Shown: positions 10,020 to 64,000, numbered from the stretch's first letter. The stretch is 64,000 nucleotides of DNA from Amoebophrya sp. A120 (GCA_905178155.1 CAJINV010000006.1:3630169-3694168), one strand, 5' to 3'. The notes: generated by a model from the letters alone, not told the origin. Program-made: numbers and translations.

Positions 10020-13000
10020 TCAAGGTAGGTGAAAACCATCTCCCTGAAACGGCAGGCGAGGGCCCCGCTCAACACCTTGGTGCCGGCCAGCTTGCCGTGA
10101 AGTTGTTGTTCTTCGGAGCCCTCGAGTAGCCCTTGACGTTGTAGTTTCCATATCTCTTTCTTCTGTTGGTGCTAGTACTACATCTTGGTCGACGTGGTCT
10201 GCAGCGCCACGACCACTGCGCTGCTCATCAATATCATCTCCTGCGTCCCTGGCGTCTAGGCTTAGCAGTCCCATCCCCTGCGCCAAGCTCCGGTCCTGAT
10301 CTAGTAGGTGGTCTTCCGCTACTTGCTCTTGCCCGGGCGGGACTACGCCAACTTCTAGGAGTACTCCTTCTGCTGAAGATGAAGCAGCAACAATACCATG
10401 ATTACCACGACGCTCCTCCGCTCGTTCCTCTTCTCCGCGAGGACCGGAGGCCCTCATTTCATCCATTATTTGTTGCTGCGGCGGTCGACGTTCTTGCTGT
10501 ACTTCTAACGCGGTCGTGCTAGCCCGCCGTGCCCGCAGGGTTTCCACTATTCCCAGTGCATCCATCAGGAGTTCGCTGTCCGGGTCCTCTGTTCCAACAA
10601 ACATAATATTGCCGAGGCGGTTGATATGGAAGCGGGTCAGGATCGAAATCGACAAAGTCGAATGAATCTGCAATGCACACAAAATAAATGCGACGCAAAA
10701 TAAAGCGACTCTATTGCAGAGGATGCGAGGAAGGCGGATTATAGTCCTGGTAAGGGTCAAGAGCAGTTGGGCTGCTGACTAGCATAACAGACAGGAGCCC
10801 TTTTGTTGCCCTAAACCGCGCGACAGACTCGGTTCCAGGACGGGGAAGATTTGTCGCGCTGCGACTACACACTGTTGGTCTAAGAACTTTAACTGGCATC
10901 GATTTTGCGCATCACAAATTTTTCGATCTTGTCGAAGATTTCGATCCTGACGCTTTCATAGTTGATCTCCGCACGAGCCTCGTGGCGGTGCCGTTGGGTA
11001 ACAGTAAGCTCCGAGACCATCTCCTCCCAAACTCCGCGCGTCAATTCGTTTCCAAACACCACTTGTCTTCTTTCCACTCTTTTCTTCAAAAATCCGCGTC
11101 GCAGCAGGATGTCGTTCAAGAGGTACGTATAAGCGACGTCTTTGACGCACCCGGCGAAGAGACAGGCCACGCAGTTGGTGTTTAGTGCGGGTTCTGCCAC
11201 GATTTTGTCACAGGTAAGGTCCAAGCGGCATACCTCTGCTGCTTCGCACCCAAATCGCCAATTCTCCTTGCAATGCGAGGTACCAAGACCGTAGGAGTAA
11301 CAGGCGGGATGGTTATGGAATGGAAATTTCTATTGCCGTAGCTAGCCTAACAACGCAGACAAAATGGCAATGCAAATTCTGTCATTCTGTTTAGTACAAG
11401 CATGCTGTGGTTGAGACTTGTCATGCTGAGTGTTCTTTGGAATAGACCCAAAAGCGTCATGATATTTTTTATCAGTATTTACGTACGTCTGATGTCCTTG
11501 CTGTACGGTAAAAAATCTTCCTGCGGATAAGCGTGATTCCGCGCACAGCAGAGACTGCTGCAAGCACAATTGATGTTATCGCAGCAGGCAGAAGTGCACG
11601 GGCCGTGAGTGAGTTTCCTGCTTCCACAACCTTCGACTTCCTCGGAACAGTAGTGTCTGCAATTTGGGACGCGGGAGCCGCAACACCTGCTGCTCTGTTC
11701 TGCTCTTTCAATAGCTTCGCTTTCTAACTCCGAGAGTGTTTTTTCAAAGTTAGCGTCTTGACCTGCTTGATGTCCTTGCTCCCCGACCTCCTTTGATGAT
11801 GCGTCGTATCTTACACCGCTCAAACTTTCCGGCACGCAACAGAGCTTCTCAAAAATCTTCTTGTTTCCGCACGACAAACTCTCCGCACAACCTGTCACAT
11901 CGTCCCCCAAGAACCGAAACCGGAAGCTGTTCGCGGTCAATTGGAAGGTGAGCAGTGCCTCTAGTTCCTCGGTTAGCGCGAGCAATGCTGGCTGGAGCTG
12001 GTCGATTTGACGGTTTGTTAAAAGCCTACGCCCGTTTTGATGGTCGTGAGCCGGAGCTGTTCTTGTCGTGGCGTGGTCGTGGCTCTCTTGGTACTGTCGC
12101 TCGTCCCCTTGATGCGCGGCAGAAGATGCTGGTGGAGCAACAGTAGAAATACTAGCAGTAGGAGCAGATGACCACGCATCTGGGTCTTGTAATATTCTTG
12201 AAGCCTGCTCCGGCGTTGGCCATAAATCGAGAGCTTCTGTTGTGCTATCTGTTGATGGAGGCATTTCCTGACTTGAAGATGCGCGACCCCGAGGACCTCC
12301 TCCTGCTTCTGTCGAAGGAGGTGGTCTTGCTCTTCTTCCTCCACGACGAGATGCTCTTGAAAAACCTCTTCGTCTTCCAGCCAAGCTCCGCAACGATTCG
12401 TCCACATTTCCAGTCTGCCGGGAAGCAACATCCCGAATTAACACTTGTTCTCGTTCTCTCTCATCCACATATGCATTGCAAAAGCGTCTGGGTCTGGAAA
12501 GGTCGAACCTGTATTGCGTGTCTCGCATGTCTGAAAAATTTGTATTGCATAAGCAGCAAATCAAGCGCCGCACTTTCGTCATGCAGAAGCGCAGTTTGTA
12601 ATGCGTTCTGCGCATGAGAAAGTGTTTGAAAAATTTGTCATGCTGCGCTGCACTTAAAAGCACAGTCAATCATGACCATTCAGCATTACAAGTTTCCAGA
12701 CCCAGGCATATTTGCATTTGATACCACATGCGGGTACACGACTTTTCCCATCTCCAAGGTGTTCATTCTAGACACAACAGCCTTGTTCCCAAGATTCGGA
12801 GAACTGCAACAAGAACTGCTGCATCTTCCCTGTCCTTCGTTTTCTAAACAGTACAAATCCCTTCTTTCAATGTACTTCCAGTGATTGAGCCAGGAAAACG
12901 TATTTTCACCGTTCGAAGACGTGTATTTCCCCGGCTCGAAGAGCGGCGTCACGCACGCACAGAGGCAGCAAGCAAGTGGGCAGTCAGTGGACGAACACCA

Positions 13001-16000
13001 CGAGTCCTCGCCGTTAACCGGATGGTCGTTGCAAGGCGCTAGACACTGTTGCCGCAGGGAAATTTGCGGATCACTCTCCGTCGGCATCTCCGCGAAACCC
13101 GCGGCCGCCGCGTGGGCGTCATCAACGGCAGTCGAGGGCTTTAAAATAATTCCCGGGCAGCAGCTGGGACCGCTACAAACGCGGTCGCACCAGTTGTCTG
13201 GTAAGGCGGGTAGATGGTTCTCGACAGTAATCCGCTTTCGGGATTTCTCGCATTCATCTTTTTCCCTTTGGGTTAGAGATCTCGAGGTCCTGAACCGCTG
13301 CTCGCGCCGGCCCCGCTCCTCGTCATGGAGATGGCGAAAGTGGAGGCTTGTTATGGAACATTGCAAATATGTCCGGATCTTCATCTGGAAGATGAGTGCA
13401 GGAGGGTGTAGTTTCGGCCACACAGATGCTGAATGCCCCACCAGGACTGCTGGAATGCAGACTATCATGTTGGCATCACAGGTTTCATACATTCGCAGAA
13501 CTTTGCGATGCATATGTCGAATGAGACATACCGATCTTGCAGCAGGGCCAAAAAAAAGAGACATGTTGTGCTACCCGCGCAAGACAAATTTTTGTGCGTT
13601 CTAGTACAGGACGCATGACAAGTTGTAACCTTGCTTCGTGATGTTGACCCAGACATATTTGCAAAAATCCGTGGATACCCATGCCATCTGTGCTGTCGCA
13701 GGGAAACATGTGGCCGAACCCGGATTCGCGGTTAGACGAATGGTTTTGAAAAAGACGACGGCTTCGCCCTTGGCTGGCTTGGGAACCGAAGGAGAGGAGG
13801 TTAGTATCGGCTTGCTGGGAAGATGATGATAATCCTCTTCTTGTTGACCTCCGAGAAGATGATCTTGCTGAGGACTCCTCCCGTCGCCCAGTCTCGACCT
13901 GCTCACCACGACGAGAACCTTCAGAGTCGCTAAGAGTCCTGCTGCTTTGATGTTCCCCTTCTCGTTGCTCACCGTCACCCTGAAGACTGCGACGGCCTGG
14001 TCTTGCTCCGTTGCGCGAGGAGCTACTTCGCCGACGACGCGTACTAGTACTATGCGAAGATCTACTCCCGTGGTCTGCTGTTCGGCGACGGTCGTCAGCA
14101 CCAGCAGCACTCTCATCTGTAGGGCGTCCTACCACTGTACTTCTTGGCATCATTTCTACCTGCGCAGGAGCGGCTTCGACAGGTTCTTGTCGTGATGTTT
14201 CATCAGGAGTTTGTTGTCCAGAGCCCCCTGCTCTATTTTGTTGCGACAAAATTCGAAAACCTCCGTTATCTATCATCTCTTTCACCGCAGGCACCACACC
14301 GCAGCCGGTTTTTGCCATGTCGGCGATTTTCGCCACAACGTCGTCATTTTTCACCGTCAACCACAGTGCTTCCTGCAAGGACGGGCAGTCGAGGAGACCA
14401 GATCCCCGGACGGACGGCATTTTGGCGACGTCGGAAAGGCATGAACTGCAAGAGTATCGCACTCGTAGTAATCGCAGTCATGCATGACAGATCTCCATCC
14501 CAAGGTAAAACAGCATGACAGATCTCACTTGTCATGGTGGGCTAATTTGTCATGCGATTTCTACTAGTACGATACTTTTGCAGGTCGTAAAAGGAAAGCG
14601 CGGTCCTCGTCGTGGTGGTTGACGACGTGCTGTGTCCTTTGGGTGGAAAAAGCCCCTTCATCACGACCCTGCTGCTGTCCAACGGCCGGACCTGCAGCTT
14701 CGTCTTCTACTGGGCCTGCGCCTGCGGCCGACGATGCTACAACACGTACATCACTCCCCTCCAACTGCACCGCCAGCAGCTTTTTGATCAGTTGAACCCG
14801 TCTTAACAAGCGGACTAAGAATCTTTGCGAGTTCGCGAAATTCATCTCTTTCAGTGTGAATTTGGTGTGCTTTTTCACGTGTGGGTTCCTGTGTGGAGCA
14901 GAAGATGTTGTTGACCCGATTGTGTCCATGGTCTGTTGTGATGGCGCAGCGACTTCTACGCCGGCGGCTCTCGAGGACGATGGTCGTTGAGCAGGGTAGT
15001 TGCCGGTGCTAGAGTAGCTTGCCTCGTCGTACTCTTGTTCCCGGTCGGTCATGCCAACATCTTGTAGTAATGGACTGACGCTGCTAACGTGCTCCGACGA
15101 GGCAATCGAAGCTGAGCTGCGGTCAGTAGAAGCTCCTGCTGAGGACCTTGTATAATTTCCAGGAGGTTGTGTCTGATGCTGCTGTTGACCTCTCACCAAA
15201 CTTTCTTCCTCACAACTGACGTGGTCCTCCCGCGGCGTACCAGCCGTTCGCTTCCTCGTCTCCCGAAAATCGTCGTGGGTGACTGGATGTTGAAACAGCT
15301 CCAACACCCTACTCCGAAGATGTTGAGCTTCGCGTTGTTTGTCGTTGTCTGCATCCTGTTCTTCTAGCTCGTTTGTTGCAGCACGAGATGTACCTCTACG
15401 AGTCTCAACACCAGAAGCTCGCTGTGCAGCCTGTGCCACCCGCCCGGGGACCTCTGCCAAACCAGCACCTGCGACAGTAGAATGAAAGTGTGCTGCTCCC
15501 GTAATTTGAATTTCGTCACTTGACGCAGTAAAACTGGCCAGCATCTGCAGCATGGTCGAATACGCGTTTGTGTTGACCCAGTTCATCGGCTATCAAATGC
15601 AAATATGTCTGGGTCTGGAAGAATGCAAGTTTGTCATGCTTGTCTGGCATGACTCGAGTGTCTGTGTTGCATAGGCACGAAAAGGGACTCTTACCTGTCA
15701 TGCAAGAACGCAGTTTGCCGTGCGGGACACGTAACACATGACAGCCAGAAAATTTGTCATGCATAGCTGCGCATTGCAGTGCGTCTAGCATCCCTTTTTA
15801 GCATTACAAGTTTCCAGACCCAGACATATTTGCAGTGCATACTGGTGTGCTTACCAGCTCGTTCTTATGCACATCCTCCGTGTTCACCACATTGGCCGTC
15901 CGCGGCCCGCTCGAGCAAGGGGCCCAGTAGGCACGGTTTGTTCCGCAGAAAAAGTCCGAGGAAGCTTGCATGCAGGACTGCGTAGATGCACAACAAAAGG

Positions 16001-16889
16001 ATCCGTCGTCTCCTGTATTGCTAGATCTCCTTCTAGAAGATGATCCTCCTCTTCTTCTCGGGAGATCATCATTACTCGAGACCACGTTGGGCTCGTCGCT
16101 CGATGGTGAACCTGAAGGGCCACGAGATGCAGCTCCTGCACTTCTGCTCCTACTTCTACGTGCTGATGACCCAACACGACTCTGCGGCTCCGAGGATCCA
16201 ACACGACTCTGGCTTGTTCCCCCAGCCTGTACTTGCGTTTGTTCCCTTATTTGTGGTCTTCTCTGTCCCCGCGACCGCCGTTGTTCCCGCCTTTGCTGCC
16301 TCGCTAGAGATCTCTGTCTCTCTTGCTCTTCTCGCATCCACTGTCTTGTTTCGTGCCTCAGCCGCAATCGCTCCTGCGGGTCCGGGCCGTGCATTTCGAA
16401 GACTTTGTCCGCTTCGGCTGTTTTCACCACCAGCATGACCTCCCACATCAGGGTCGCTAGTTCCTGTCTTAAGTGGTTCAATCGCTGTTTATTCATCTTC
16501 TCTTTACCGTCAACATCTCGGCCTTGTGTAGTTTGCTGGGCCGCTGCTGCTCCTGCCAATCTCGCACCCTCAACCGCGTGCTGGATCCGAACTGTGGCCG
16601 CTGGCGCAGTTTCGTTATGACTATCCTGCTCCGGGAGCAGGCGTTGCCATCCCTGGTGCCCACGACTGGGGAATGGCACGGGAAGCCGTTCGCCACTGAT
16701 CAAGTACGAGGAGGCAGGAGGAGCAGCCTGTGTGCCGCAGATGTTGAGGGAGAGTTGTGTGGAAAAAATGATGTAGTTGAAAGTCGTGAGTAGCGCCAGG
16801 GTGGTGGTAGAGTAGTAGTTGCAGCTGCTCCGTCGCGGCCGCTGCCGACTGGGCGGCCCACGAGAGTGATTATTGCGCCGTACCAGCAT
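10020..16889 (-). CDS. Multi-exon Cys-rich protein with N-terminal hydrophobic signal/anchor, unknown function; paralog of 27140-34789
   Basis: ORF pieces join in frame after removing 5 elements (AFL|SDV, YPHV|DER, EIN|RLG, MG|LHF, STP|xNW). The junction near 11330-11490 is unresolved, so this could be two genes. Confidence 0.65.
10625..10960. mobile_element. Introner family C
   Basis: TIR TATGGAAGCGGGTCAGGATCGAAATC; DR GTTGA; in-frame join. Confidence 0.9.
12470..12723. mobile_element. Introner family A
   Basis: TIR core TGCAAA..GTCTGGGTCTGGAA; DR CCACA. Confidence 0.9.
13352..13677. mobile_element. Degenerate introner family A
   Basis: TGCAAATATGTC / GACATATTTGCA; DR lost; frame restored by removing 5 extra nt. 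Confidence 0.65.
14440..14589. mobile_element. Introner family B
   Basis: TIR core TGCAAAAGTATCGYACT; DR AAAGG. Confidence 0.9.
15591..15841. mobile_element. Introner family A
   Basis: TIRs clear; DR diverged (TCGGC/CTGGT). Confidence 0.85.
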
Positions 16890-17911
16890 CTTTTTCTGGC
16901 TTGCTTTTATTTGAATTTATATTTGTGTGACGATCTTCAAGATTGAGCCTCGCAGCGCTGTTCAGTTGTAAATTATCACAAGTTCTTGTGTTTGGTATCT
17001 ACCTTTTACAGGCCGTTGTTTCCTAGAATGGTGGTAGTAAACTTGTGCAGATCTTTGATGTCTTTCAGGTTTTACTTTTTTTGCTACGCTAACTTAAACT
17101 TATGTGAGAATGAAATTGCCGTAAGAAATGCAGAGCCTGGAAATTGCCGAATCAAGGGAAAAATCCTACTTTGGAAAATGCAGTTAGAAGCACTTCTTCA
17201 TGCGTAGTTTTATTGTTTTTGTTTTTGTAATTTGCTCGATGACCATCGCACCATTATCCTCTTAATTTTTTTTTTTTCTTCACGACCTGAATTTCCTCGA
17301 TCACCAACACACTAAAGAGCGAAGATTTTTAGCTGTCTGAACCTGATCCAAATTCATTTATCCGGACGATCATTTGTTTGGTGATCGCAAGCGACAAAAT
17401 CAGAACCAAGAAGACCGAGAGCTTGCTTCAAATTTTCATCGCAAAAATGTGAAACAAGAACCATGAAGATGTTGATGCGCTTTCTCAACACATTTTTTCC
17501 GAATTTACAAGCAGAGCCACGATGAGGACTAATCCCTGGATGCCGATTTATTAAACGCTAGTGTCTATTGGCACCGGGAGTGGTTTGGATCCAGATGAGA
17601 ACTTTGCTGCGCGTCAATACACGTGGTCTATAAAAACATGAGTACACGACACGTCGCACGGTCAGTCACGGGCTGTCTCTTTGTCCTTTTCATGACCCCA
17701 ACCGCATAAACATCTGCAAAAAGCAGGAAGTTGGTCTATTTTCTTCCTCATATCTTCTTCAATCGAACTTCAAGGAGCTCAACAACTTTGCATTTCTTTA
17801 TTCTTTGCTTACATTCCTTCGCTATCGACGTCCTCACGATTGGTTGTATAATAACTTGGTCGAATTACATTCTTGTAATACGCTAAAATTATAATATGAA
17901 GTTACTCTTAA

Positions 17912-20900
17912 TTAAACAACATCCTTGGGGGCGGAGGTGCTACTGTTCTTCTCTTCAATGTGCTGCTTCTCGATTTCGATTTCCTGTGGGTCAGGAAAGA
18001 TCCCACGCTCAATTTCTTCTTCCAGCACCTCAAATTCGATCTTTTTCTTCGTGGCCCGGTCAAAAAAGCTGGCAAAGGATTTCCATTCCTGCCCTTTGGG
18101 AACCTCTCCTTGGGCATAGGGACTGCGGTAGGCGTGCTCTTCGGTCGCGCCATACATGAAATCCCGCCGCACAAGCTTGTGTCTGTTCTCCTTGTGCCAA
18201 CCCTCGGCTCGGCCCCAGGCAATTATGCATTGCAAAAGCATCGCACTCGTTCTCGTAGTAATTGCAGTCACGCATTACAAATCTCGTCTCCCAGGCAAAT
18301 CAGCATGACAAATTCCATTAAGTCTCATGCTGAGCGAATTTGTATTGCAGTTACTTCTAGAAGTACTAGTACTCTTGCAAAGCATAGCGATGGACTGCTG
18401 CCAACTTGCGGAACTGGATTCACCGACGCTGTCAGGTGAGCGACTCGTCCGCGTCTCTCCCGACGGCCCTCGGTGGACGGTCGTCTTTGTGACATCTCGA
18501 AAAAAATTGCGCAGCTCGGCCCTTGCCCCGCGGAACGGCGCGACTGTGTTCATCCCCGACTGTGCGACGTCGTCTTCGACTTTCTTTTATGAATTGCAAA
18601 AATGTCTGGGTCTGGAAAAATGCCAGGTTTGTCATGCATATTGTCCATGACCCAGGATGTCTGTGATGCACGACCTAGCGTCACAGATTTTTAGAGGGGT
18701 TCCTGATGCGTATTCCGCTTAAATGCCCTCTCCGCGTAACACAAAGCGGACTTCTCTTGCGGGTCATGCAAGACAGATTTTTTTAGACTCCAGAGACAGC
18801 ATGACAAGTTGCAACCTTCCAGACCCAGACAAATTTGCACTTGATATCTTTTCCCCGCGGGGACCTCGAGATCCGAACTCTTCCACAATTCTGTCCACCT
18901 CCACCGGGCCGCCGCGGCGCACCGCATTAGAACGTATGCAAGAAAAAAAACTGTGTAAGTGTAAATTTGTGTTGCAGAACAACACGCAGCAGAGTTATAC
19001 CTGTCATGCCAGACAGCCATGAAGCCCTCTTTTCATGTGTGTTTTGCCTTGCAAGCCACGCATGACAGGTTTTCTCTGTCATGCAGAGCAAATTTGTGAT
19101 GCTGTTCCTGAAAGAAAGTTACACTTACACACTTTTTTTTCTGGATAGAACGGGGGCCACCACCACCACCACCACCGCCACGCTTGCTCTCACCCGGGGG
19201 AACAGAAGGGGTAATATCGCGTTCGCCACTGTGCAGATGGAAATCTGCGGGAATGTAAGTCACGGAACTGAAGTCCAGTGCCGCGACATTGTAATATGGA
19301 AGATGCTATGAACTGCAAAAGTATCGTACTCCTATAACATGCATTACAAATTCCCTCAGCATGAGAAATGAAATTTGTAATGCGGATTTACCTTAAGAAT
19401 GAGATTTGTAATGCATGATTGCAATACGAGTACGATACTTTTGCACAGGATAGATGCTCGTGAGGAGCAGCTGCACCACCAGCTTCCTCGCTTGTTCTTG
19501 TGATAACTTGCAGGTTGCCGGCGTGGCTATGGGAGTGTCAGGATCGAAATCGTCAAAGTTGAAATAGTTTGTCATGCATAAAATGCAACGCAGAGATTGC
19601 CTCTATTGCAGAGGACGCAAGGGAGGCAGATTGTAGTGCTGTTAAGGGTCGAGCATTGCCCGGCTGATTAGCATGACAGAGGGGAACCTCTTTTCCCTAA
19701 ACAGCATGACAAAGTGGCTTCCGGCACGGACAAAATTTGTCATGCGCCGACTAGAAACTGTGGGCCAAATTGGTATCGATTTTATGCATTACAAGTTATT
19801 TCAACTTTGACGATTTCAATCCTGACACTTCCATAGTGGCAGCCGGGAAAGTACAAGCCATTGCGATGCATCACGCGAAAGTGCCTCACAGAGTCCTTGT
19901 AGAGCCGTTATCCAAGAAAAAAACATTGTAGGTGTAACTTTTTTGGAGGAACAGCATTACAAATTTGCCTGGCATGACAGCAAAAACCTGTCATGCGCAG
20001 ATAGCACGTGAAAACGCCCTTTAAATAATGGACCCTACGATGCATGCCAAGCATGACAGACGCAATCATCTTGCATGTTGCGCATCACAAATTTACACTA
20101 ACAACGTTTTTTTCTTGCGATAGCCGTTTCATGAGGTCTACTAGCCCTTCGTCTGTGCTGTGCTCGTGCGCAAACTGCCACAACGGCTGGTGGTTGATCT
20201 GCGGAACCGCGGGCGCGAGCTCGAGTCTGCAGGACCATTGTTCATCTGAGACGTGCACAAGCGACGTTCCCAAAAGCGACACCGCTACAGGTGCCAAGTT
20301 CGGCTGGTAGAGGTCTTGGAAAAATTCGGCGTGTGTGTGCTGTGCCTCCGTCGCACGTGGTGCCGTCGCTGGCGTGTCGAGGTGCTCCTGGTTGGTAAGG
20401 GCCCGCGTGACAGCTGCAAATCCGAAGTACGACGTCTTGGCGATGGCGGTGACCTGTGCCGGAAACTCGCTCTCTGATGTTGGATCGCAAGGGCATTTAC
20501 CTTCACAGACCAAGTTGTACCAACAGTCTATGTTGTTGTCTCCGGTCGTGCCGTAAAGACCTTGCTCAAGGCCGATCTTTACGAAGACCGGCTCGCCGTC
20601 GTCTTGCTCCGTCGGGCCGCTCTGCCCTCGGGAGACCCGCTTCATACGTGCGCGTTGATGTGTCCACCCATACTGCTCGCTCGGGGCCGACGCCCCGTTC
20701 ACGTGAAAGCCCGGGCGACCTTCCTTGTTGCGAACCCGAAAGTCTGGCGGCCCGGTGAGCACCACGTGATAGTCCGTTGCGGGCGGGTAAAAGTCACTAG
20801 GTACCCCCGGAAACTCCCGCGGCCCCGCCTGCGCTTGGAAAATGACCTTCAGCTTGTGGTCCGACGGCCAATTCAGCATGTCTTCTGGTGCCTTGTTGCT

Positions 20901-21958
20901 CCTGATCACGGTTGTTCCGGGCGCAGCCGCAGCATCTTCAAAACCCGGGGTGTCCAGCCATGTGTGCGGGCTGCACAGGTCCAACTTCCATCGGTCCTGG
21001 CAGTCGTGAACGCACGAAGACGAAGTAGTTGCATCGTACTGCCCGGTATCCTGTGCAAAAGTATCGTACTAGTAGAAATCGCAATACAAAAAATTGGCTT
21101 AGCATTTCAAATGGAATTTGTAATGCTGATTTGCCTTAACAACTAGATTTGTAATGCCAATGCGTAACTGCAATTAGGACGAGTACGATACTTTTGCAAT
21201 GCATACCCGGTACCCGGCATCCCCTGAGCACCGACGTACTGTGCGAGCAGGCCCGCCTGGTCTTCCCGCGCCTTGATTGTAACAGTTTTCGTTGACGTCT
21301 CGTCGGAAGATTTTTGTAGTTCTACTTCTTGTCGCGCGTAGCTGATTTTCTTGTTTCTCTTCGTGGAAGTCCTGGTCCTCTCGGACACGGCGAGGAAGGA
21401 GGTCGTGAAGGGGTCGTGCACAAGGGAATGAGAAGTGGAAGTACTTCTAGAAGACCTGGTTGCCATTCTTGCCATCCTGCTCCGCGTATTATTCATCTTC
21501 GTCAAATTAAGAAAATCGTAGTCACCGCCTCCGAAGTCACTCGCGAGATGAGCATCTTCTTCATTTTTCATCCGGAAGGCAAATAAGTCATGAGAGGTTG
21601 GAAACATAATTTCATCACCTCCTCCTCCGTGCAACAAGGACAACTTCTCGCCACACCATGACCACACGACCCCGGCCAACATTTTTGTCCCTAACAACGA
21701 GCCACCGGCGCCAAGGACTTCATCTAGGTAAAACCAGAGGACCCACACGGCGAGGAGTAGAGTTAGAAACGACACTACGAGGCGGGCCCGTCTTGTGGAT
21801 CCTTCCACTGGTGCAGCAGCTTCTGCAACTCCGGGTACAGCCTTCAAGAGAAACATATAGTTGGTCTTCTTGGTATTATAATCAGGCGAAGGTGCTGCAG
21901 GACCTCCGACTTGCACTCGGTCCTCCTCGCGAAATTCTTTTATTCTTGGGGAATTCAT
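17912..21958 (-). CDS. 8-exon single-TM protein with degenerate protein-kinase-like motifs
   Basis: All 7 junctions are in frame from ATG 21958 to TAA 17912. TM segment LVVSFLTLLLAVWVLWFYL. Motifs VFVKIG, MHRNGLYFPGCHAGN, AALDFS. Confidence 0.75.
18224..18386. mobile_element. Introner family B
   Basis: DR GCAAT/GCGAT. Confidence 0.85.
18588..18846. mobile_element. Introner family A
   Basis: DR TCTTT. Confidence 0.92.
18935..19147. mobile_element. Introner family D
   Basis: TIR TATSCAAGAAAAAAA..TGTAAGTGTAA; DR GAACG. Confidence 0.92.
19307..19452. mobile_element. Introner family B
   Basis: DR GATGC. Confidence 0.92.
19528..19835. mobile_element. Introner family C
   Basis: DR GTGGC. Confidence 0.92.
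19909..20122. mobile_element. Introner family D
   Basis: DR GCCGT. Confidence 0.92.
21047..21205. mobile_element. Introner family B
   Basis: DR CCCGG. Confidence 0.92.
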
Positions 21959-21999
21959 CGCTACGGCTACTCTTGCTTGTGAGATCCTTATACAACTTA

Positions 22000-24032: not shown

Positions 24033-24087
24033 TTTGGAACGCGAAGGACAATAGGAGCTTGGTACTTACACAAGAAAGCGGCTACTT

Positions 24088-26133: not shown

Positions 26134-26456
26134 TATCAGAAGGAAAAATCCCCCCACCCCATATCGAAGTGGAAATCTGTGACGCGGGACTTGTGTACAC
26201 AAATCGGCTCTGTATTGCAGGAAGGCAACGCGGCTAGATCCCCAGGCTATGCAGGGGCGTATCGGGCTAGTTGCTCAGCATGGCAAACGGCCCCGCTTTA
26301 GGCCCAACAGCATGACCAATCACCTCCATAATGGGGGCGAAGCTTTTGCCCTTGTCTTCTAGCAAGACAGACGTGATTTGTGACCTCAAATCAGCAACAC
26401 AAATTTTCGGAAACATGCCTTTTCGATATGGAGAGGGGGGATTTTTCCTCTCAATA
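26134..26456. mobile_element. TIR element (family F, ends resemble G) between two ~82-bp direct repeats
   Basis: TATCAGAAGGAAAAATCCCCCC..CCATATCGAA / TTCGATATGG..GGGGGGATTTTTCCTCTCAATA. Confidence 0.75.
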
Positions 26457-46100: not shown

Positions 46101-49100
46101 ACTTGCTGCCCGTGGTGAGGACGATGTATTCCTGGTCGAGAAACGCTCTCAACGCGCCCTCCTGCATATGAAAGTGCACAACTACTCCCCGTCCACCTCA
46201 TTAGTGATGCGAAAACCCAAATCCACACTGTGCCTGCTGTTGCTGTTGGCACTGTTTGCATGACAAGTTCTGGCAGGAGCACAAATGGCACTACAACGCT
46301 GTGCAAATTTGTCATGCAAAGCCTGCATTTTTGCTGACGGTTGTATTGCTGTTCATGCCATACAAATGAAGGGGAGGGGGAGCTATGTGCACTCTCATAC
46401 TGCAACCTCCCCTGGCACGCGTCAATCACCGGGATGATCTTCTCCCGGTATGCAAGAAAAAAACTGCGTAAGTGTAACTTTGTGCTGTAGACGATGCAAG
46501 ACATTTACAGCTGTCATGCTGGACATGCATCAGAGGCTGTTTTCGTACGTGTTTTCACTGATACTAGCTACGCATGACAGATTTCCTCTGGCATGCAGAG
46601 CAAACTTGTGATGCTGTTCCTCCAAGAAAGTTACTTACACTTACTGTTACTATACACAGTTTTTTCTTTGCATACCCGGCCGAACGTCTCGATTAGTTCC
46701 TCCACGATGGATATCACAAGAAAAAAGTGCTACAGTTACACATTTGTTGTAAATTCAGCATCACAGAGTTGCTCTGCATGGCGAAGAAAACTTGTAATGC
46801 GCAGACTATAAGGGAAAACACGCACGATCACGAAATAATCAGGCTGGCAAGCATTTCCTGAATGACAGAGGTTGTCTGTCTTGCTGGTATTGCATCAGAG
46901 TGTGTAACCGTAACACTTTTTTCTCGCGATAATCGACAACGAGGGAATCAAATGGCCGGTTTTCGAGCCAGCGACCACGTGGACGATGACACACTGGAAA
47001 TTTTGCTCGATCAACGCGTTGGACACACAGTGTTTCACTTCCTCGTCCATTTCCTTCTGCGTGAGCAAATGCCCGCCGCGGTTCCGCATGTAGACCTCCA
47101 TGGCCTCGACCTTCGGGAAGGATTCCGGCAGCTGAAACACGTTGTTGCCCGTTTTCACGACGGAGACCGACCCTGACTGCTTCGAGGCAGAAGGACTGTT
47201 GTTGTTCGCGAAAAGAGCACTGGTCTGTTTCGTGCTGTTCCCACCAAGAGCTGGTAACCGGACTTCTTTTGGACTGATGTTGGAAAAGAATTTCCCCTTC
47301 GCGGCGTTCAACGTGCCGGAGCCGACCTCCCCCGCGCCGGACACGATCGTCAGAATTCCGTTGCCGAGGTCGAACTCGTTTTCGTTCTCCTTCTTCTTCT
47401 TCAACAACCGGCAGATCGCGATTAACAAGGGAAGGTACTCCGCGTCGGAACCCGAGGGGCAAAGGGTGATACTGTTCGAAAACTTCGGCAACTTCCAGAT
47501 GGACCGCATTTGGTCCCGAATGGAGTCAATCATTTCCATGTACTTCGTCCTGCCCTCGGAAGAATTCTCGTCCATCTGGGCTTCGAGCATATCAAATGCA
47601 AAAGTGTCTGGGTCTGGAAGAATGCAACTTGTCATGCTGTTTTTGGACTCTAAAAAAATTTGTATTGCATGACCAGCAAGACGGGTCCGGTTTGTGCTAC
47701 ACGGACAGGACATTTCTCATGCGGAAGGTGCATCAGAAAGCCCTCTAAAAGTCTGTGACGCTAGGTCATGCATTACAGGCATCATGGATCATGAGAAATA
47801 TGCATGACAAACCCGGCAATCTCCCAGACCCAGACATTTTTGCACTTGATAGAGCAGCTCCGCGACTAATGATTCCCCGACTTGGAACGTGTAATCCGTG
47901 ACGCAATTGCTCGTGCACGAGCTCCGGTGAATCCCGCGCGGTTGCGGAATTGCGGGCGTGTTGTACTTGTTCACCCCCTCTTTCGTCAGAATCAGACGAT
48001 CATCTCCCCCAGACACCAGGAAGTCCAAGGTGATTCGCTTGGACAACGACGGCGTTGTGTTGTTGATGTTGTAACTGGGCGCCCGGTATCCTGTGCAAAA
48101 GTATAGTACTCCTCGTAGTCATGCATTACAAATCTCGTTCCCACGGCAAATCAGCATGACAAATTGCATTTGTCATGATGAGGAAATTTGTAATGCAATT
48201 CATACTACTAGTATGATGCTTTTGCAGGTCATACCCGGTTCAAGTGCTCCACCAGCAGATTCTCCTGCGGGGGCACAATGGTCAAATGTTCTTGCGGTAG
48301 CCTTTGCGGTGCGGGAAGGGAATTCAAGTACCGGTCCAACATTGGGGCGATAGGGACTTGTTGCCCGACATTGTTGTCTTGCTGATCTGCAGGGGTGGTT
48401 ACTCCCCGTTGAATGTTATTCATCGCCCCCGAAGTGTCGCAGTAGAAGAAGTTGGTTTCTAACGCAGGTGGATTGGCGGCGTTGTTGTTGTTTTTTGAAT
48501 CAGATAATTCCTGTTTCTCTTTCTCAACCGCCCCACCGCCCGGAGTGGTCACTGTCACATCCGGACTCGAGCTCTGCAGCCGGAGCAACCCTGCTTCCGA
48601 TGGCATTATGCATTACAAAAGTGCCGTACTAGTATGAATTGCATGAGACATTTTTTCAAGAAGAAAACTGGAATTTGTAATGCCGGTTCAGGTAAAAAGA
48701 AACAAGGTTTGTCATGCGTAGCTGCAATCTATACGAGTACGATACTTTTGCATTTCATAGGCGTGGTGTTTTCGCTGTTGCTGAAATTGGAGGAATCTGC
48801 CGTGTGGAGCAACGAAGCCGTCTCCAGAGACTGAAACTGATTTACATCCTGCTTCTTCTGCTCTTCCAGAAACCTCCGTCGGAACCAGCTATGCATTCCA
48901 AATCTGTCTGGGTCTGGACGGTTGGAACTTGTCATGCTAGCTTTCCATACCTAGGAGACCTGTATTGCATACTTAACCAACAGAAGTCGCAGCCTCTTTT
49001 GTACGGGAAGCCACGCAGTTTCTCATGCGGATTGCCAATGAGAAAGCGTTCTGGAAAGTTGTCATGCTAGGTTGTATTCGGAGCGGTTTCCATCATCCAC

Positions 49101-49457
49101 ATTTTAGCATCACAAGTTTCCAGACCCAGACAAATTTGCATTTGATACCCGCCCGGGGTTTTCAAATCCGACATTTTGTTGTTCGCGAAGGTGCAGTATG
49201 AACTGCAAAAGTACCATCGCACTCGTAGTAATTGCAGTCACGCATTGGAAATCTTTTTTTTAAGGTAAATCCGCATTACAAATTTTATTTCTCATCATGC
49301 TGAGGAAATCTGTAATGCATTTCGACGAGTACGATACTTTTGCATTTCATATGCAGCTGCCATCGTTCGCCGTCGTCGTGCCAAAAAGCTCCTGCTGCCG
49401 GCCCAGCGAGGGGCAGGAGGGCGACCGCTTCAAAGCCGAGGACTTGCGGATCGTCAT
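43118..49457 (-). CDS. PLP-dependent transferase-like (fold type I) protein, multi-exon
   Basis: Joined motifs GGDDRL..GVNKY, SGSDAEY, GEVGSGT, HVVAGSKTG, IDACQGR, TGSKFYGGPPFSGAVL, NWGVVLRW; ends KMTLVLENWDAIKKMFL*. 12 TIR elements plus one likely GT-AG intron (45170-45363). Start uncertain (possible extra exon near 49599). Confidence 0.8.
43164..43398. mobile_element. Introner family H
   Basis: TIR TATGG..TCTCAA..GTTACATTCTCAACTGTTACATG; DR CCAGT. Confidence 0.9.
43431..44454. mobile_element. Introner family B containing a nested MITE
   Basis: DR GGTCC; family-B ends intact. Confidence 0.9.
43548..44418. mobile_element. 871-bp GC-rich non-autonomous TIR transposon (MITE) nested in an introner
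   Basis: TIR TGACGTCGCCTCGGTA / TACCTAGGCCACGTCA, TGCA duplicated on both sides, many subterminal GCCTCGGTGCGCC repeats. Confidence 0.85.
44493..44760. mobile_element. Introner family A
   Basis: DR GCACC. Confidence 0.92.
45777..45927. mobile_element. Introner family B
   Basis: DR ATCAG. Confidence 0.9.
46167..46399. mobile_element. Introner family E
   Basis: DR CTGCA; join DACQGRLQ|EGAL. Confidence 0.92.
46449..46674. mobile_element. Introner family D
   Basis: DR CCCGG. Confidence 0.9.
46712..46931. mobile_element. Introner family D
   Basis: DR ATGGA/ATCGA. Confidence 0.88.
47590..47851. mobile_element. Introner family A
   Basis: DR GAGCA. Confidence 0.92.
48087..48233. mobile_element. 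Introner family B
   Basis: DR CCCGG. Confidence 0.9.
48607..48759. mobile_element. Introner family B
   Basis: DR GGCAT/GGCGT. Confidence 0.88.
48890..49147. mobile_element. Introner family A
   Basis: DR CCAGC/CCCGC. Confidence 0.85.
49197..49351. mobile_element. Introner family B
   Basis: DR TGCAG. Confidence 0.9.
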
Positions 49458-52684: not shown

Positions 52685-55600
52685 TTACTGATGAAAGTAC
52701 GACTGATCCCGATTCTTGTCCCGATTGCTCCCCCGCGGCGTGCAAGCTCCGGATACGTTGCTTCTGGGCATCATGCTGTTTTCGGAGTTGTAATTTTTGC
52801 CGTTCCAATTTTGCTCCTGTTGCTGCCTGCTTGTTTCTTGGTAGTACGAGAATTGTGGTCCACCACGACCTCCACCTCCAAACGTAGGGCTATTTTTCGC
52901 ACGACCTCCTTTATAATTTTTCCCGACACTGTAAAAATTGGAATCCAACTCCGAGGTGCTGCACGATACTCCTTTGTAGTAATGATGTGCAGTAGACGTC
53001 GCCCGCCCTACAGCTGGTTGTGGATGTAGTTCTTGTGAAACAAAATTATTCAGGGGCCGCACTCCTGTTGGTCGTGGAGCAGTACTAGTAGAATTAGAAG
53101 CCATGTAATTATTCCGATCGTCGTAAAAATTGTCAACATCGCGCGACTGCTGCTTAGAACTCGTCGTCCACGACGGCTGCTGATAGAAGTGGTTGTCCTG
53201 GTCATGGTGGTACTGCTGCTGCTTGTTCATCTGGTCATGCCCCTGGTCGTGTCCCTGCCGCCCCCCGAATCCACCTGGATAGTTGTTCACATGATCATCC
53301 AACGGCGCCGCCATCGCAACTCCTGCCGCGCTATGTTGGGTATTCTCATTTCCATATGGTGTCGAGGGTACTGCTTGTTGTATGATCGGGTAATTTGAAC
53401 ATACTGGCCCACCACGACCCTTGTTCAACATCTGGGGCCCGACGAGATGGTCGGTTTGCAGCTTGTGCATGTGCAGCCCACCGCGCCAATATTCCGCACT
53501 TCCACGTGGCTGTGCCATGACTGCGACACGGTCGGCGAAGGATGGTCGTGCTCTTGGCAGAGATATGGATTCATCAGAGTTGAAATCGACAAAGTTGAAA
53601 TAATTTGCCATGCATAAAATGGATGCCAGTTGGAACCCAGTTTCCAAGTGGCGCATGACAAATTTCGGCGGTCCCTAAATCCAGTTTGTCATGCTGTTTA
53701 GGCAAAGAATAGTGATTTAGATTTTCTCATGCTACTTTAGCAGCTCGAGCTGTAACCCCAAACAGGCTTACAATCGGCCTCACTTGCCTGCTCTGCAACA
53801 CACGTACCTCGGGTCATGCATTTTATGCATTACAGATTATTTCAACTTTGACGATTTCAAACCTGACAGTTCCATAAGAGAAGGATCAGAAGTATCTGCT
53901 GTACCACGAGGACCGTCGTGTATGGAGGTGTCAGAGTTGAAATCCGCAAAGTTGAAATGATTTGTCATGCATAAAATGCGACACAAAGACTGACTCTATT
54001 GCTGAAGGCGCAAGGGAGGCAGATTCTAGTGCTGGTAAGGGTCAAGAATTGGGCTGCTGACTAGCATGACAGGGAGCAGCCATCTTGCCCTAAACAGCAT
54101 GACAGACGTGCTTCAGAGGCCAGGAAAATTTGTCATGCACCGATTGGAAACTGTGGGTCGAACTGGTATAGATTTTATGCATCACAAATTATTTCAACTT
54201 TGTCGATTTCAACTCTGACACATCCATATCGTGGTCTTCCCCGCTACAAGTCTGTAGTTGTCCCGGAAGATGATGTTCATGATGCAGTTGTCCCGGATCT
54301 TGCTCTTGGTGCACGACCGCGTTTTTGTTTTTGAGCAGGTTGTCGTCCTGTTGGAGGTAAGAAGTACTAGACTGTGGAGCTCCTCCTGCGGCCATCGCCA
54401 TGTTGTCCCCGCCGCGCGGCACGCCATCTCGTCGCCCAGCATCTTCGCGGACGACGACAGCAGGTCGTGCTGTGGGGGCAGCAGCAGCTCCTGTGCTGGC
54501 ACAAGAACCGCCTCCTCCACTAGAAGCGGGAGCAGGAGATGAACACACCTTCTTCACTGCGGCGGCCGGAGGTGGACAAGAAGTAGGTGGGGAACAGGAA
54601 TTCGCATGATCGGCATCCCGGAGCATCCGCTCCACCAAGTTTCTTTTGCTGGAAGAGATATTCTCCGGGTGGGCACCAGTACCAGCCGGTAGTTCCAGCT
54701 CGTGAGTTCCCTCAAATAACTGCTTGCTGCCTGATACTTGATTTTCGTTTCCTGGATTATTTTCGAGGTCGATTTTCAGCCTATTTGATGTTCCTCGCGG
54801 CCCAGGTCTCCATCTCATCTGCTGGCTCGTCCCGGCACGCACAACCTGCTCCGCATCGTATTCCACCAGCGTTTCGACCCGATCCAGCAGCTCCGTGACC
54901 GCTTTGTGCACGGTGAAGCTGAGTAAATGCTGGTTCCTATTCAGTTCTTCAACAGTCCGGGTTGGTGGGGACGACGACGACGAGGTGCTTAAAATTGTTC
55001 CAGGAACTCCCGCCGCATTGGGGGTCGACGTCGTCGTAGCCGTGGTGGATGTTGTTGTAATACCCTTGTCTACAACAACTGGCGCAGCAGCAGCAGCGGT
55101 TCTAACCGGCTCCCCAAACCGGTCGAATTGCGAAGTCAAAACGACGTCCGACACGGCAACGCGCTTCTTGTTCGAAATCTGCGCGCCCAGCCTGTTTTCG
55201 GCCTGCTCCTGCGTGATGTGTATCCAAGAAAAAAACTGCGTATAGTGTAACTTTCTTTGGCTGACAGCATCACAAATTTGCTCTACGTGTTGACAGAGAA
55301 AACCTGTCATGCGTGGCTCGAAAGGGAAAACACACACGAAAAGAGGACTTCATGGTTGTCTGGCATGACAGGTGTAACTCTGTTGCATGGTCTGCATTAC
55401 AGAGTTACACTTACACAGTTTTTTTCTTGCATAATGTGATCCCGTGCCATAATCCGCTCCACCTGCACCTCCCGGTTACAGAAGACCGACCAGATATGAG
55501 AGTGCGCAACTACTCCCCCTACAACTGCCCCTCATTTGTCATGCAAAAACCCAAATCCAGTTGTTACCTATACCTCCTTGTGGCACCGCGTGGATGACAA

Positions 55601-56897
55601 ATTCCGCCGATGGAACAAGTTCCAAACAGTACTACACTCGGCGTATGAATTTGTCATGCAGCACCGGGTCCACCTGTACTGGTTTATTCTTTTTGTCATG
55701 CTCTTCATGCAATACAACATATCAGGGGGAGCGGGAGCAGTTCTTGTGCACTCTCATACCAGACTTCGTCACAGGGCCACTGGGCCTCCAGCAACACAGC
55801 AGCGTCCAGAACCGCGACAACTATGCATTGCAAAACTACTCGTACAAATCGTATTTATGCATCACAAATTTCTTTGTCAAGTTAAACCCGCACTACAAAT
55901 TCCATTTTTAATGCTGAGAAAATTTGTAATGCAATTTATACTAGTACGATTATAGTACTTTTGCATTGCATAACAATGCGATTGCTGCAAAACTGGAGTG
56001 CGGTTTTCCAGTTGCGTTTATTCTTCTTGGTGTTCGCCGATGTTGCAGACGGCTGATTGCTTTCATCATCGACTGTTATTTCCGGCGCAGCGTCCTGTTG
56101 CCCTCCTTTGTTAACGGCAACAGTTACATTCCTCGCAAGCGCTTCCGCTTTTCCCAGCGCTGCTTCTGCGACCTGCATATTATCTTTGTTTATCGTGTGC
56201 AAAAGTATCGCACTCGTATAAATGCATTACAAATTTCCTCAGCATGAGAAAAAAAATTTGTAATGCGGATCGACCATAAGAAAAGGATTTGTAATGCATG
56301 ATTGCAATACGAGTACGATACTTTTGCACAGGATATTGTTGCTCTTCGACCGACTCCGTTGCTTGCTGGTGCCACGTATCAAGTGCAAATATGTCTGGCT
56401 CTGGAAGATGATTGCGAGATTTGTCATGCTTGTCTAGCATGACCAAAAAGTTTGTGACGCGTGTCAAAGAAGAGACCCTTTTGCCTGTCATGCAAAAACG
56501 CAGTTTGTCATGCGAAACACGCAACACAAAGAAGCGCAGATATTTTTCATGCTTGGCTGTGCAACATTACAGAGCGTTCACTATTCCCAACGCAGCATTA
56601 CAAGTTTCCAGACCCAGACACTTTTGCATTTGATACCACGGTTGCGGTCAGTAACCAGGGAATTCCGTTGGGAAGCGGATTTTTCTTCTTGCAGCTGCCT
56701 GTAGGCACACTCAAACTCTTCGACCTGTGGTGAAGTTTTTGAATTTTATCAAGGTCTGTCATGCAGAGCCGGCATTAATATCAAAAAATGCGGTTGGAGG
56801 TTGAGGTTGTGATGCAAACATAGCTACTTGATGTACTACTCTCTATGCAGAACATCAAAGCTTTTTCCATCCGTACCTCCTCTGCGATCTGCAGACA
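52685..56897 (-). CDS. Dephospho-CoA kinase (CoaE/COASY-type) domain protein with long low-complexity C-terminus; 5' part lies beyond the window
   Basis: Joined exons read VLDAAVLLEAQWPCDEVWSVFCNREVQVERIMARDHITQEQAENRLGAQISNKKRVAVSDVVL, the typical C-terminal half of DPCK. Confidence 0.85.
53564..53876. mobile_element. Introner family C
   Basis: DR AGAGA. Confidence 0.92.
53921..54228. mobile_element. Introner family C
   Basis: DR TCGTG. Confidence 0.92.
55221..55433. mobile_element. Introner family D
   Basis: DR ATGTG; join ARDH|ITQE. Confidence 0.92.
55495..55758. mobile_element. Introner family E
   Basis: DR CCAGA; join DEVW|SVF. Confidence 0.9.
55822..55972. mobile_element. Introner family B
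   Basis: DR ACAAC/ACAAT. Confidence 0.88.
56191..56335. mobile_element. Introner family B
   Basis: DR TTGTT. Confidence 0.92.
56377..56635. mobile_element. Introner family A
   Basis: DR CCACG. Confidence 0.92.
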
Positions 56898-57040
56898 TAT
56901 CAAATGCAAAAATGTCTGGGTCTGGAAAGAATGAAATTTGTGATGCTAACTTTCGATGATTCAAAAACCTGTATTGCATGAGGAGCAGCCGGCACTCAGA
57001 TTTTTGCTATTCCGAGAAGGCATTTCTCATGCAGTATAGG

Positions 57041-63936: not shown

Positions 63937-64000
63937 ATAGGCATGAGAGAGCCTTCACACAACCTGTAATGCTAAAGCATGCATCATCGACATCGTAGGT

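What the first reader, a model, noticed from the sequence alone, without database searches (positions are those of the whole stretch)
10625..57040. Multi-family system of TA..TA TIR elements that act as frame-perfect non-canonical introns
Seen: about 52 elements in at least 7 families with unrelated TIR sequences share one design (TA ends, 20-40-bp TIRs, 5-bp DR of free sequence). Deleting element plus one DR rebuilds recognisable proteins across the junctions, including the DPCK and PLP-enzyme motifs. Known: inverted/direct-repeat introner elements forming non-canonical introns have been reported in Amoebophrya, so the class is not wholly new; to my knowledge the removal machinery and mobilising transposase are unresolved. 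Inference: one removal mechanism recognises the shared geometry rather than the sequence.
Basis: partly seen in the sequence, partly recalled or inferred. Interest (0 to 1): 0.9.

Follow-up and report, generated by a model that had tools for sequence, protein, structure and literature searches.

The report
Amoebophrya introners with fixed splice register
These are the already published transposon-derived introns of the marine parasite Amoebophrya A120, cut out of the RNA exactly although they lack GT-AG ends, and damaged copies show a fixed cut position (one base before the opening TAT, four bases after the closing ATA) that is likely read by a modified spliceosome.

Summary
There are 51 TAT..ATA elements in 7 families, 40 with a perfect 5-bp direct repeat (DR). 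The window is Amoebophrya sp. A120: two exons match named A120 proteins at 100%. Contigs of presumed RNA runs skip exactly element+5 nt at 11 of 11 element joints shown, none GT-AG, while DNA contigs keep the elements. The class is published (Farhat 2021; Gozashti 2025 lists one family with '5-bp TSD, TA/TA termini').

The 'geometry, not sequence' inference is only partly right. (1) The DR is not needed: copies with 3-5 of 5 mismatches are still spliced. (2) Those copies fix the cut: intron = N-TAT...ATA-N4 at 3 of 3 unambiguous joints. (3) One donor also joins a non-partner GCATA+4 acceptor 487 nt further on. (4) The families are not unrelated: all 51 carry an internal GCATNACAAA motif, often 31 bp apart, a likely shared transposase site.

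Best model: MITEs of one integrase-type transposase (inferred, not found), removed by a relaxed spliceosome (inferred). A Euglena-like hairpin machinery is the main rival. RNA support comes from one sample.

The parts
10625..10960 (.). Introner, family C, perfect 5-bp DR
12470..12723 (.). Introner, family A, perfect DR; RNA joint 12464>12724
13352..13677 (.). Introner, divergent A-like, DR 3 mismatches; RNA joint allows register k=4 or 5
14440..14589 (.). Introner, family B, perfect DR, both termini mutated (transcript TAC...ATG)
15591..15841 (.). Introner, family A, DR 3 mismatches; RNA joint 15586>15843 fixes register k=4 (ends GT-CG)
18224..18386 (.). Introner, family B, DR 1 mismatch
18588..18846 (.). 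Introner, family A, perfect DR
18935..19147 (.). Introner, family D, perfect DR
19307..19452 (.). Introner, family B, perfect DR
19528..19835 (.). Introner, family C, perfect DR
19909..20122 (.). Introner, family D, perfect DR
21047..21205 (.). Introner, family B, perfect DR
26134..26456 (.). Introner, family F, DR 4 mismatches, flanked by an ~85-bp duplication; RNA joint 26129>26458 fixes k=4 (ends AT-TG)
26703..26711 (-). Alternative acceptor: GCATA followed by 4 nt, joined to the donor at 27456 (joint 26702>27457, 2 of 4 runs)
27194..27455 (.). Introner, family A, perfect DR; RNA joint 27185>27453
28269..28490 (.). Introner, family E, perfect DR; RNA joint 28262>28490
29339..29485 (.). Introner, family B, DR 3 mismatches; RNA joint 29334>29487 fixes k=4 (ends TT-TC)
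30348..30563 (.). Introner, family E, perfect DR; RNA joint 30342>30564
30853..31115 (.). Introner, family A, perfect DR; RNA joint 30847>31116
31591..31856 (.). Introner, family A, perfect DR; RNA joint 31585>31857
31932..32242 (.). Introner, family C, DR 2 mismatches; RNA joint allows k=3-5
32323..32612 (.). Introner, family A, perfect DR
32664..32876 (.). Introner, family D, perfect DR
33061..33339 (.). Introner, family F, perfect DR, transcript 3' end AGA instead of ATA; removal keeps the 1524-aa frame
33511..33664 (.). Introner, family B, perfect DR
33746..33894 (.). Introner, family B, perfect DR
33993..34299 (.). Introner, family C, perfect DR
36721..36951 (.). Introner, B-like, DR 5 of 5 mismatched; an RNA contig piece ends at 36716, 4 nt from the element (acceptor side of k=4 only)
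37009..37221 (.). Introner, family D, perfect DR
37600..37866 (.). Introner, family A, perfect DR
37942..38100 (.). Introner, family B, perfect DR
38186..38402 (.). Introner, family E, perfect DR, transcript 3' end AAA instead of ATA
38465..38626 (.). Introner, B-like, perfect DR
43164..43398 (.). Introner, family G, perfect DR; removed in P0001
43431..44454 (.). Introner, family B, perfect DR, with a nested ~870-bp insert; removed whole in P0001
44493..44760 (.). Introner, family A, perfect DR; removed in P0001
45777..45927 (.). Introner, family B, perfect DR; removed in P0001
46167..46399 (.). Introner, family E, perfect DR; removed in P0001
46449..46674 (.). Introner, family D, perfect DR; removed in P0001
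46712..46931 (.). Introner, family D, DR 1 mismatch (silent in P0001)
47590..47851 (.). Introner, family A, perfect DR; removed in P0001
48087..48233 (.). Introner, family B, perfect DR; removed in P0001
48607..48759 (.). Introner, family B, DR 1 mismatch; P0001 needs k>=2
48890..49147 (.). Introner, family A, DR 1 mismatch; P0001 needs k>=3
49197..49351 (.). Introner, family B, perfect DR; removed in P0001
53564..53876 (.). Introner, family C, perfect DR; removed in P0036
53921..54228 (.). Introner, family C, perfect DR; removed in P0036
55221..55433 (.). Introner, family D, perfect DR; inside the DPCK domain region of P0036
55495..55758 (.). Introner, family E, perfect DR; inside the DPCK domain region
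55822..55972 (.). Introner, family B, DR 1 mismatch; P0036 needs k>=1
56191..56335 (.). Introner, family B, perfect DR; removed in P0036
56377..56635 (.). Introner, family A, perfect DR; removed in P0036
56898..57040 (.). Left part of a family-A element split by a Copia-like LTR element; resumes at 63937
11482..16916 (-). Host gene, 1478-aa frame after removing 4 elements; function unknown
17915..22000 (-). Host gene, 863-aa frame after removing 7 elements; little RNA cover
27143..34858 (-). Host gene, 1524-aa frame after removing 13 elements; alternative C-terminus to 26461
36190..38935 (-). Chlorite-dismutase/HemQ-like gene (weak PF06778 hit, below cut-off) and the downstream frame, with 6 elements and one GT-AG intron; gene limits not settled
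43121..49457 (-). Host gene of A120 protein P0001 (917 aa): 12 elements and one GT-AG intron
52688..56727 (-). 3' part of A120 protein P0036 (PF01121, dephospho-CoA kinase), 7 elements

Best explanation
The elements are short inverted-repeat insertions with a 5-bp target duplication that Amoebophrya A120 removes from its RNA at a fixed position, likely with a relaxed version of its ordinary spliceosome, and that likely spread as non-autonomous DNA transposons of one shared transposase.

Steps: (1) Shown: TAT[GC]...[GC]ATA ends, 5-bp DR of free sequence, both orientations in genes, very high copy depth in the DNA run. (2) Inferred: one integrase-type DDE transposase (IS3EU/GingerRoot-like) binds the internal GCATNACAAA repeats that all families share, and makes the 5-bp duplication. 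(3) Shown at 11 joints: the RNA lacks exactly element+5 nt, so a perfect DR restores the original exon. (4) Shown at 3 joints and consistent at 4 more: the intron starts 1 nt before TAT and ends 4 nt after ATA, i.e. N-U-A-U-S ... S-A-U-A-N-N-N-N; the DR itself is not read. (5) Inferred: the symmetric TIR supplies a donor in either orientation that keeps the spliceosomal U+2/A+3 but frees G+1; the closing AUA sets the acceptor by distance (A-7 or A-5 may be the branch point) without an AG; the long hairpin helps but is not required for joining a given donor and acceptor.
For: RNA-like contigs X3-X6 skip element+5 at 11 of 11 element joints shown, none GT-AG; registers allowed are k=4 only at 15591, 26134 and 29339, k=4/5 at 13352, k=3-5 at 31932. 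An X3 piece ends 4 nt from element 36721, whose DR is fully decayed. The donor at 27456 also joins GCATA+4 at 26703 in 2 of 4 runs; [GC]ATA occurs at 0.35% of non-element positions and predicted pairing to that donor is 0. +2 T, +3 A and -7 A are invariant in 51 of 51, while +1 and -1..-4 are free. A GT-AG intron in the same gene as 12 introners starts GTATTG. Farhat Table S4: all 18 predominant non-canonical classes of A25 and A120 have T at +2, and nearly all spliceosome proteins are present. Shared motif: 167 hits in 12,415 element bases, 51 of 51 elements, against 14 in 51,378 outside; 950 hits in 315 elements of the fetched loci against 10 after shuffling, commonest same-strand spacing 31 bp. 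253 of 356 high-scoring TIR candidates in those loci have an exact 5-bp DR. DNA-like run X1: unitigs run from inside one element across the exon into the next.
Against: No lariat, circle or splicing-factor data were obtained, so the spliceosome step is inference. The terminal pair +4:-7 is predicted in 42 of 50 introns and all 49 folded are far more stable than shuffles (z -2.9 to -20.8), as a hairpin-guided non-spliceosomal route would want. There is no AG and no clear branch-point consensus. The invariance of TA/ATA may reflect transposase needs and my TA-anchored detection. The register rests on 3 unambiguous joints from one sample, in contigs labelled only 'RNA?'; one of them (26134) lies in an 85-bp duplication and is marked 'between: not known', as is the alternative joint, which has a 29-nt side. 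The alternative acceptor may be the end of a decayed element (inverted partner near 27142, p=0.004). The T+2 excess in Table S4 may come from aligner preference. No transposase was found, and Farhat found none in A120.
Confidence: 0.6

Rival explanations
1. Same transposon origin and same fixed cut, but removal is by a separate hairpin-guided endonuclease/ligase, as proposed for Euglena nonconventional introns: it measures 1 nt and 4 nt from the base of the TAT:ATA stem.
For: Strong whole-intron hairpins; terminal pair +4:-7 predicted in 42 of 50; no AG or branch consensus; U1 snRNA not detected in A120. Euglena has an analogous code, 5'-N3CDG...CH'GN5-6, and its introns are reported to leave as circles (review).
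Against: A donor joins an acceptor it is not predicted to pair with. 13352, 12470 and 15591 splice with weak predicted terminal pairing. The kept U+2/A+3 matches spliceosomal donors (general knowledge; one search shows GTATTG in a GT-AG intron).
Confidence: 0.3
2. One reading: removal reads only the geometry (TIR plus DR), not any sequence.
For: Seven families with different TIR bodies share one layout and one removed length.
Against: The DR is dispensable: 3-5 of 5 mismatches at 13352, 15591, 26134, 29339 and 36721. Terminal bases are shared by all families. The alternative acceptor has the terminal sequence without pairing to the donor.
Confidence: 0.06
3. The elements are excised from DNA in some stage, like ciliate TA-bounded IESs, and the joined contigs are DNA.
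For: TA ends resemble IES ends (recalled). X3-X6 are only guessed to be RNA, and the check for the joined form in DNA runs was not given.
Against: X3-X6 have zero depth in whole bins where X1 is flat at about 25-30x. X1 unitigs cross exon-element borders without branching. The cut is asymmetric with respect to the transcribed strand. Farhat validated these introns with RNA-seq.
Confidence: 0.03
4. The elements are spliced through nearby ordinary GT-AG sites.
For: Position +1 is G in 17 of 51.
Against: 0 of 11 RNA joints can be placed as GT-AG; only 1 of 51 elements has any GT-AG register within the DR.
Confidence: 0.01

Closest known systems
Amoebophrya sp. A120 introner elements (Farhat et al. 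2021, PMC7789003; sections 10-12, 16, 25 and supplement Tables S4-S6 read, figures not held)
   Same: Same organism. IR starting TAT + 7 nt + AAA, 3-5 nt DRs, hairpins, non-canonical ends, about 29,850 copies reported.
   Different: The paper calls the splice position variable or unknown and finds no clear splicing signature or family-specific IR motif. Here the register is fixed at k=4, the DR is shown dispensable and an internal motif is shared across families. Its Table S4 (all top classes N-T) and its '4 nt upstream' DR remark may already reflect this register.
A120 introner families of Gozashti et al. 2025 (PMC12130899; passages, and 40 of 58 A120 rows of supplement file 8 read)
   Same: TIR DNA families of about 150, 210, 260, 280 and 305-320 bp; fam38 is annotated 'Ginger; 5-bp TSD, TA/TA termini'.
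   Different: Most rows read are 'TIR DNA, Unknown' with mixed TSD and splice-site calls; I saw no common register or shared motif stated in what I read.
IS3EU/GingerRoot DNA transposons (PMC10045372, passages read)
   Same: TA..TA termini, TIRs, TSD of free sequence.
   Different: Their TSD is usually 6 bp, here 5; no transposase was found here.
Euglena nonconventional introns (Nomura et al. 2025, PMC12501133; abstract and Discussion read)
   Same: MITE-like origin, non-GT-AG ends, short complementary motifs at fixed distances from both cuts, machinery unknown.
   Different: Euglena: N3-CDG ... CH'G-N5-6 with a purine after the cut. Here: N1-TATS ... SATA-N4 with no exon preference. Unrelated lineage.
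Fritillaria borealis MITE-derived non-canonical introns (seen only through the review PMC11282704, section 6)
   Same: TIR/TSD introns reported to be removed by an adapted spliceosome.
   Different: AG-AC/AG-AT ends and a TAC target preference there; free TSD and N-T starts here.

Membership tests
Amoebophrya A120 introner elements | Lies in the A120 genome | tested here: met
   Exons 100% identical to named A120 proteins P0001 and P0036
Amoebophrya A120 introner elements | IR starts with TAT, followed about 7 nt later by AAA | tested here: met
   TAT in 50 of 51 donors; A at +12..+15 in 37-43 of 51; families C, E and G lack the A run
Amoebophrya A120 introner elements | 3-5 nt DR at the exon-intron border | tested here: met
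   40 of 51 perfect 5-bp DR
Amoebophrya A120 introner elements | Repeated, RNA-supported non-canonical intron | tested here: met
   11 of 11 joints; element depth up to about 1e5 against about 25 in X1
MITE (non-autonomous TIR DNA transposon) | Short, TIR-bounded, constant-length TSD, high copy, both orientations | tested here: met
MITE (non-autonomous TIR DNA transposon) | Cognate autonomous transposase | tested here: inconclusive
   None in 80 ORFs from 141 loci or in 7 longer TIR-bounded candidates; no whole genome was available
IS3EU/GingerRoot | TA..TA termini | tested here: met
IS3EU/GingerRoot | 6-bp TSD | tested here: not met
   TSD is 5 bp: 253 of 356 candidates, none at 6
IS3EU/GingerRoot | Integrase-like DDE transposase | not testable with these tools
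   No autonomous copy in hand
U2-type spliceosomal intron | GT (or GC) donor and AG acceptor | tested here: not met
   0 of 11 joints; only T+2 and A+3 are kept
U2-type spliceosomal intron | Lariat intermediate, U2/U6 dependence | not testable with these tools
   Contigs only; raw-read run X9 laid 26 reads, on repeats
Euglenid nonconventional intron | N3CDG...CH'GN5-6|R signature | tested here: not met
   Ends are N-TATS...SATA-N4
Euglenid nonconventional intron | Terminal stem joining both ends | tested here: met
   42 of 50 predicted
Ciliate-type IES | Removed from DNA | tested here: not met
   DNA-like unitigs keep the borders; one run only, rare variants not seen

The most novel reading that the evidence does not exclude
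The roughly 30,000 'variable' non-canonical introns of Amoebophrya A120 follow one splice code, N-UAUS ... SAUA-N4, written entirely in the transposon's symmetric ends. A spliceosome without detectable U1 has dropped G+1 and the AG and reads that code, so any insertion of the shared transposase, in either orientation and at any 5-bp site, is a perfect intron at birth. Strain A25 (TTA ends, TT donors) would share the N-U-A donor rule. All families descend from one unfound TA..TA, 5-bp-TSD transposase that binds GCATNACAAA repeats three helical turns apart.
Probability: 0.5. Interest if true: 0.75.

Novelty: already known. Interest (0 to 1): 0.45.

Why it matters
The elements are published, but how they are spliced and what moves them is still open in the papers read. 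A fixed cut rule turns that question into direct tests: look for lariats at A-7/A-5 versus circles, mutate U+2/A+3 versus the stem, and re-place tens of thousands of ambiguous junctions in the annotation. If a spliceosome does it, it has given up both G+1 and the terminal AG, beyond what the review read reports for Fritillaria. If not, it is a second independent origin of a Euglena-like splicing code. The shared 10-bp motif gives a handle for finding the missing transposase.

Tried and rejected
No whole genome was held, so there was no genome-wide clustering or transposase search. Two viral-contig scans with TIR patterns found 0.

The look-up of sequencing runs listed no holder on record as RNA. 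The joints table was swamped by repeat-to-repeat joints from X1 (15 of 2229 shown). One search showed 15 of 16 joints: 11 element joints, 1 alternative joint and 3 repeat or paralogue artefacts (two 15653/15655>30965, one 22300>12301), which I dropped. 40 of the 51 elements have no RNA joint seen, because they were outside the two lays, poorly covered or not shown.

A mutational-asymmetry test of the register on 21 degenerate-DR elements in the fetched loci was inconclusive. The 'in-register pairs' column had an indexing bug; one search replaces it.

Seven longer TIR-bounded candidates (457-6197 bp) were examined. L037 and L073 look like chance pairings; the rest are short elements with inserts. 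The 815-bp family-G copy in L109, similar in size to Gozashti's fam38/fam196, gave no Pfam, Atlas or Copia-protein match. Pfam on 80 locus ORFs found host genes only. An hAT5 origin (recalled: 5-bp TSD, subterminal repeats) was considered; one search gave no usable paper, so it stays untested.

The 141 loci share no unique sequence with the window, so no empty-site comparison was possible. Literature searches found no paper stating the register or the motif; figures of PMC7789003 (Fig. 3, S19-S25), 18 A120 rows and files 13-14 of PMC12130899, and Roy 2023 were not seen and may bear on this. Earlier scan notes held nothing relevant.

Full report
Observation. A scan for an exact 5-bp direct repeat (DR) flanking TAT...ATA with a terminal inverted repeat found 37 elements, against 0 in each of 20 block shuffles. 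Adding decayed copies by homology and inspection gave 51 complete elements from 10625 to 56635. 40 have a perfect DR, always exactly 5 bp. They fall into seven families of about 150 (B, 17), 213 (D, 7), 216-264 (E, 5), 235 (G, 1), 260 (A, 13), 279-323 (F, 2) and 310 bp (C, 6). Element+5 is out of frame in 33 of 51, so the genes need exact removal. Removing it builds minus-strand frames of 1478, 863, 1524, 783 and 790 aa.

Organism and genes. Exon 46934-47584 is identical to a protein named Amoebophrya sp. A120 (P0001), and exon 54231-55214 to P0036, which carries PF01121, dephospho-CoA kinase. The deposited proteins agree with element+5 removal at 12 of 12 and 7 of 7 elements, including the 1024-bp nested one. 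These models come from the same public data, so they are not independent of the RNA below. P0001 aligns with its A25 orthologue across the junctions; its PLP-enzyme label got no Pfam support.

RNA test. Run X1 behaves as DNA: about 25-30x on unique sequence, up to about 1e5 summed depth on elements, and unitigs that run from inside one element across the exon into the next. X1 may be the sample the window came from. Runs X3-X6 (one sample, RNA by guess) have empty bins and uneven depth. Their contigs skip exactly element+5 at 11 of 11 element joints shown, and none can be placed as GT-AG.

The cut position. With a perfect DR the junction can slide over six registers (k = DR bases kept in the upstream exon). 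Decayed DRs remove the ambiguity. At 15591, 26134 and 29339 only k=4 fits; 13352 allows 4-5 and 31932 allows 3-5. An X3 piece stops at 36716, four bases from element 36721, whose DR is mismatched at 5 of 5. P0001 and P0036 need k>=3, >=2 and >=1 at three more. In transcript sense the intron is N-TAT[GC]...[GC]ATA-NNNN: +2 T, +3 A and -7 A in 51 of 51, with +1 and -1..-4 free. The DR is therefore not read; it only makes a new insertion silent. Caveats: three unambiguous joints, one sample, contigs not reads, and one joint inside an 85-bp duplication.

An informative exception. The donor at 27456 also joins an acceptor at 26703, 487 nt beyond its own, in 2 of 4 runs. That site reads GTGCATA followed by four bases. 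[GC]ATA occurs at 0.35% of non-element positions, and the site is not predicted to pair with the donor. It may be the end of a decayed element, but either way donor and acceptor come from different hairpins. The joint has a 29-nt side and a one-base ambiguity. Three RNA-confirmed introns also have weak predicted terminal pairing. Against this, 42 of 50 introns are predicted to pair +4 with -7, and all 49 folded fold far better than shuffles.

The families are related. All 51 carry GCA[TA]NACA[AG][AG]-type repeats: 167 hits in 12.4 kb against 14 in 51.4 kb outside (the pattern was derived from these elements). A metagenome scan returned 141 stored loci (700 kb, all JACKZZ01 contigs) with all seven families at 72-93% identity. 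There, 253 of 356 high-scoring candidates have an exact 5-bp DR, the DR has no strong base bias, and 315 perfect copies hold 950 motif hits against 10 after shuffling, most often 31 bp apart. Families B, C, D and E lie in both orientations to the transcript, and the deposited proteins remove both for B, C and D. Three-turn spacing on either strand suggests DNA-binding sites of one transposase (inference). No autonomous copy was found.

Mechanism. Most likely these are MITEs of one integrase-type transposase whose symmetric ends double as a splice code for a relaxed U2-type spliceosome (0.6). U+2 and A+3 are the kept core of a donor, a GT-AG intron in the same gene starts GTATTG, and Farhat report nearly all spliceosomal proteins but no U1 snRNA. 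The main rival is a hairpin-guided non-spliceosomal route as proposed for Euglena (0.3). Geometry-only recognition, DNA excision and nearby GT-AG use are unlikely.

What is known. Farhat et al. 2021 (PMC7789003; sections 10-12, 16, 25 and Tables S4-S6 read, figures not held) describe these elements in this strain: IRs starting TAT, 3-5 nt DRs, 29,850 copies, with the border 'unknown'. All 18 predominant non-canonical classes in their Table S4 have T at +2, so their annotation may already sit mostly on this register. Gozashti et al. 2025 (PMC12130899; passages and 40 of 58 A120 rows read) list the families, one as '5-bp TSD, TA/TA termini'. IS3EU/GingerRoot share TA..TA ends but make 6-bp TSDs (PMC10045372, passages). 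Euglena has an analogous but different code (PMC12501133, abstract and Discussion). Two reviews were read in passages (PMC11282704 also section 6; PMC11453091). Searches found no statement of the register, the dispensable DR or the shared motif.

Verdict. The feature is real and already known. The added value is a sharper, testable rule for its removal and a handle on its transposase. Interest 0.45; 0.75 if the single-code, relaxed-spliceosome reading holds genome-wide.

Noticed in passing
window 57041-63936: Copia-like LTR retroelement (359-bp LTRs, 99.4% identical, 5-bp TSD, weak rve and RVT_2 hits below cut-off, two in-frame stops) inserted into a family-A introner; recent insertion.
   Followed up: partly
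window ~43549-44415: About 870-bp GC-rich insert with its own GACGT...ACGTC inverted ends and 6-bp flanks, nested in family-B intron 43431-44454; no other copy in the window or the 141 loci.
   Followed up: partly
L039:821-1792, L109:1438-2252, L008:505-1608, L039:5723-6218: Longer introner copies carry foreign DNA ending beside the subterminal motif about 50 nt from one end; a 190-bp piece is shared at 98% between a family-G and a family-F long copy. Possible capture or insertion hot spot.
   Followed up: partly
window 26050-26541: Element 26134-26456 is flanked by an ~85-bp direct duplication instead of a 5-bp one; in the alternative isoform the stop codon ends exactly at the donor.
   Followed up: partly
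window 11482-16916 and 27143-34858: Two long Cys-rich genes share a GSG(F/L)LDCP motif and look paralogous, with introners at different places; no Pfam family above cut-off.
   Followed up: no
window 3-6680: A 2226-aa uninterrupted minus-strand frame with no introner, next to genes carrying up to 13.
   Followed up: no
window 22000-24900: An ~900-bp stretch appears twice in direct orientation (about 22000-22830 and 24070-24870), low RNA cover.
   Followed up: no
window 7000-9100 and 40100-41600: GC-rich stretches with overlapping low-complexity ORFs on both strands; may be other repeats.
   Followed up: no
run X9 on window 18798-18830 and 31591-31625: A 2026 RNA run under the same species label holds only a few family-A-like reads at 90-99% identity and no exon reads; trace carry-over or a related strain.
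   Followed up: no
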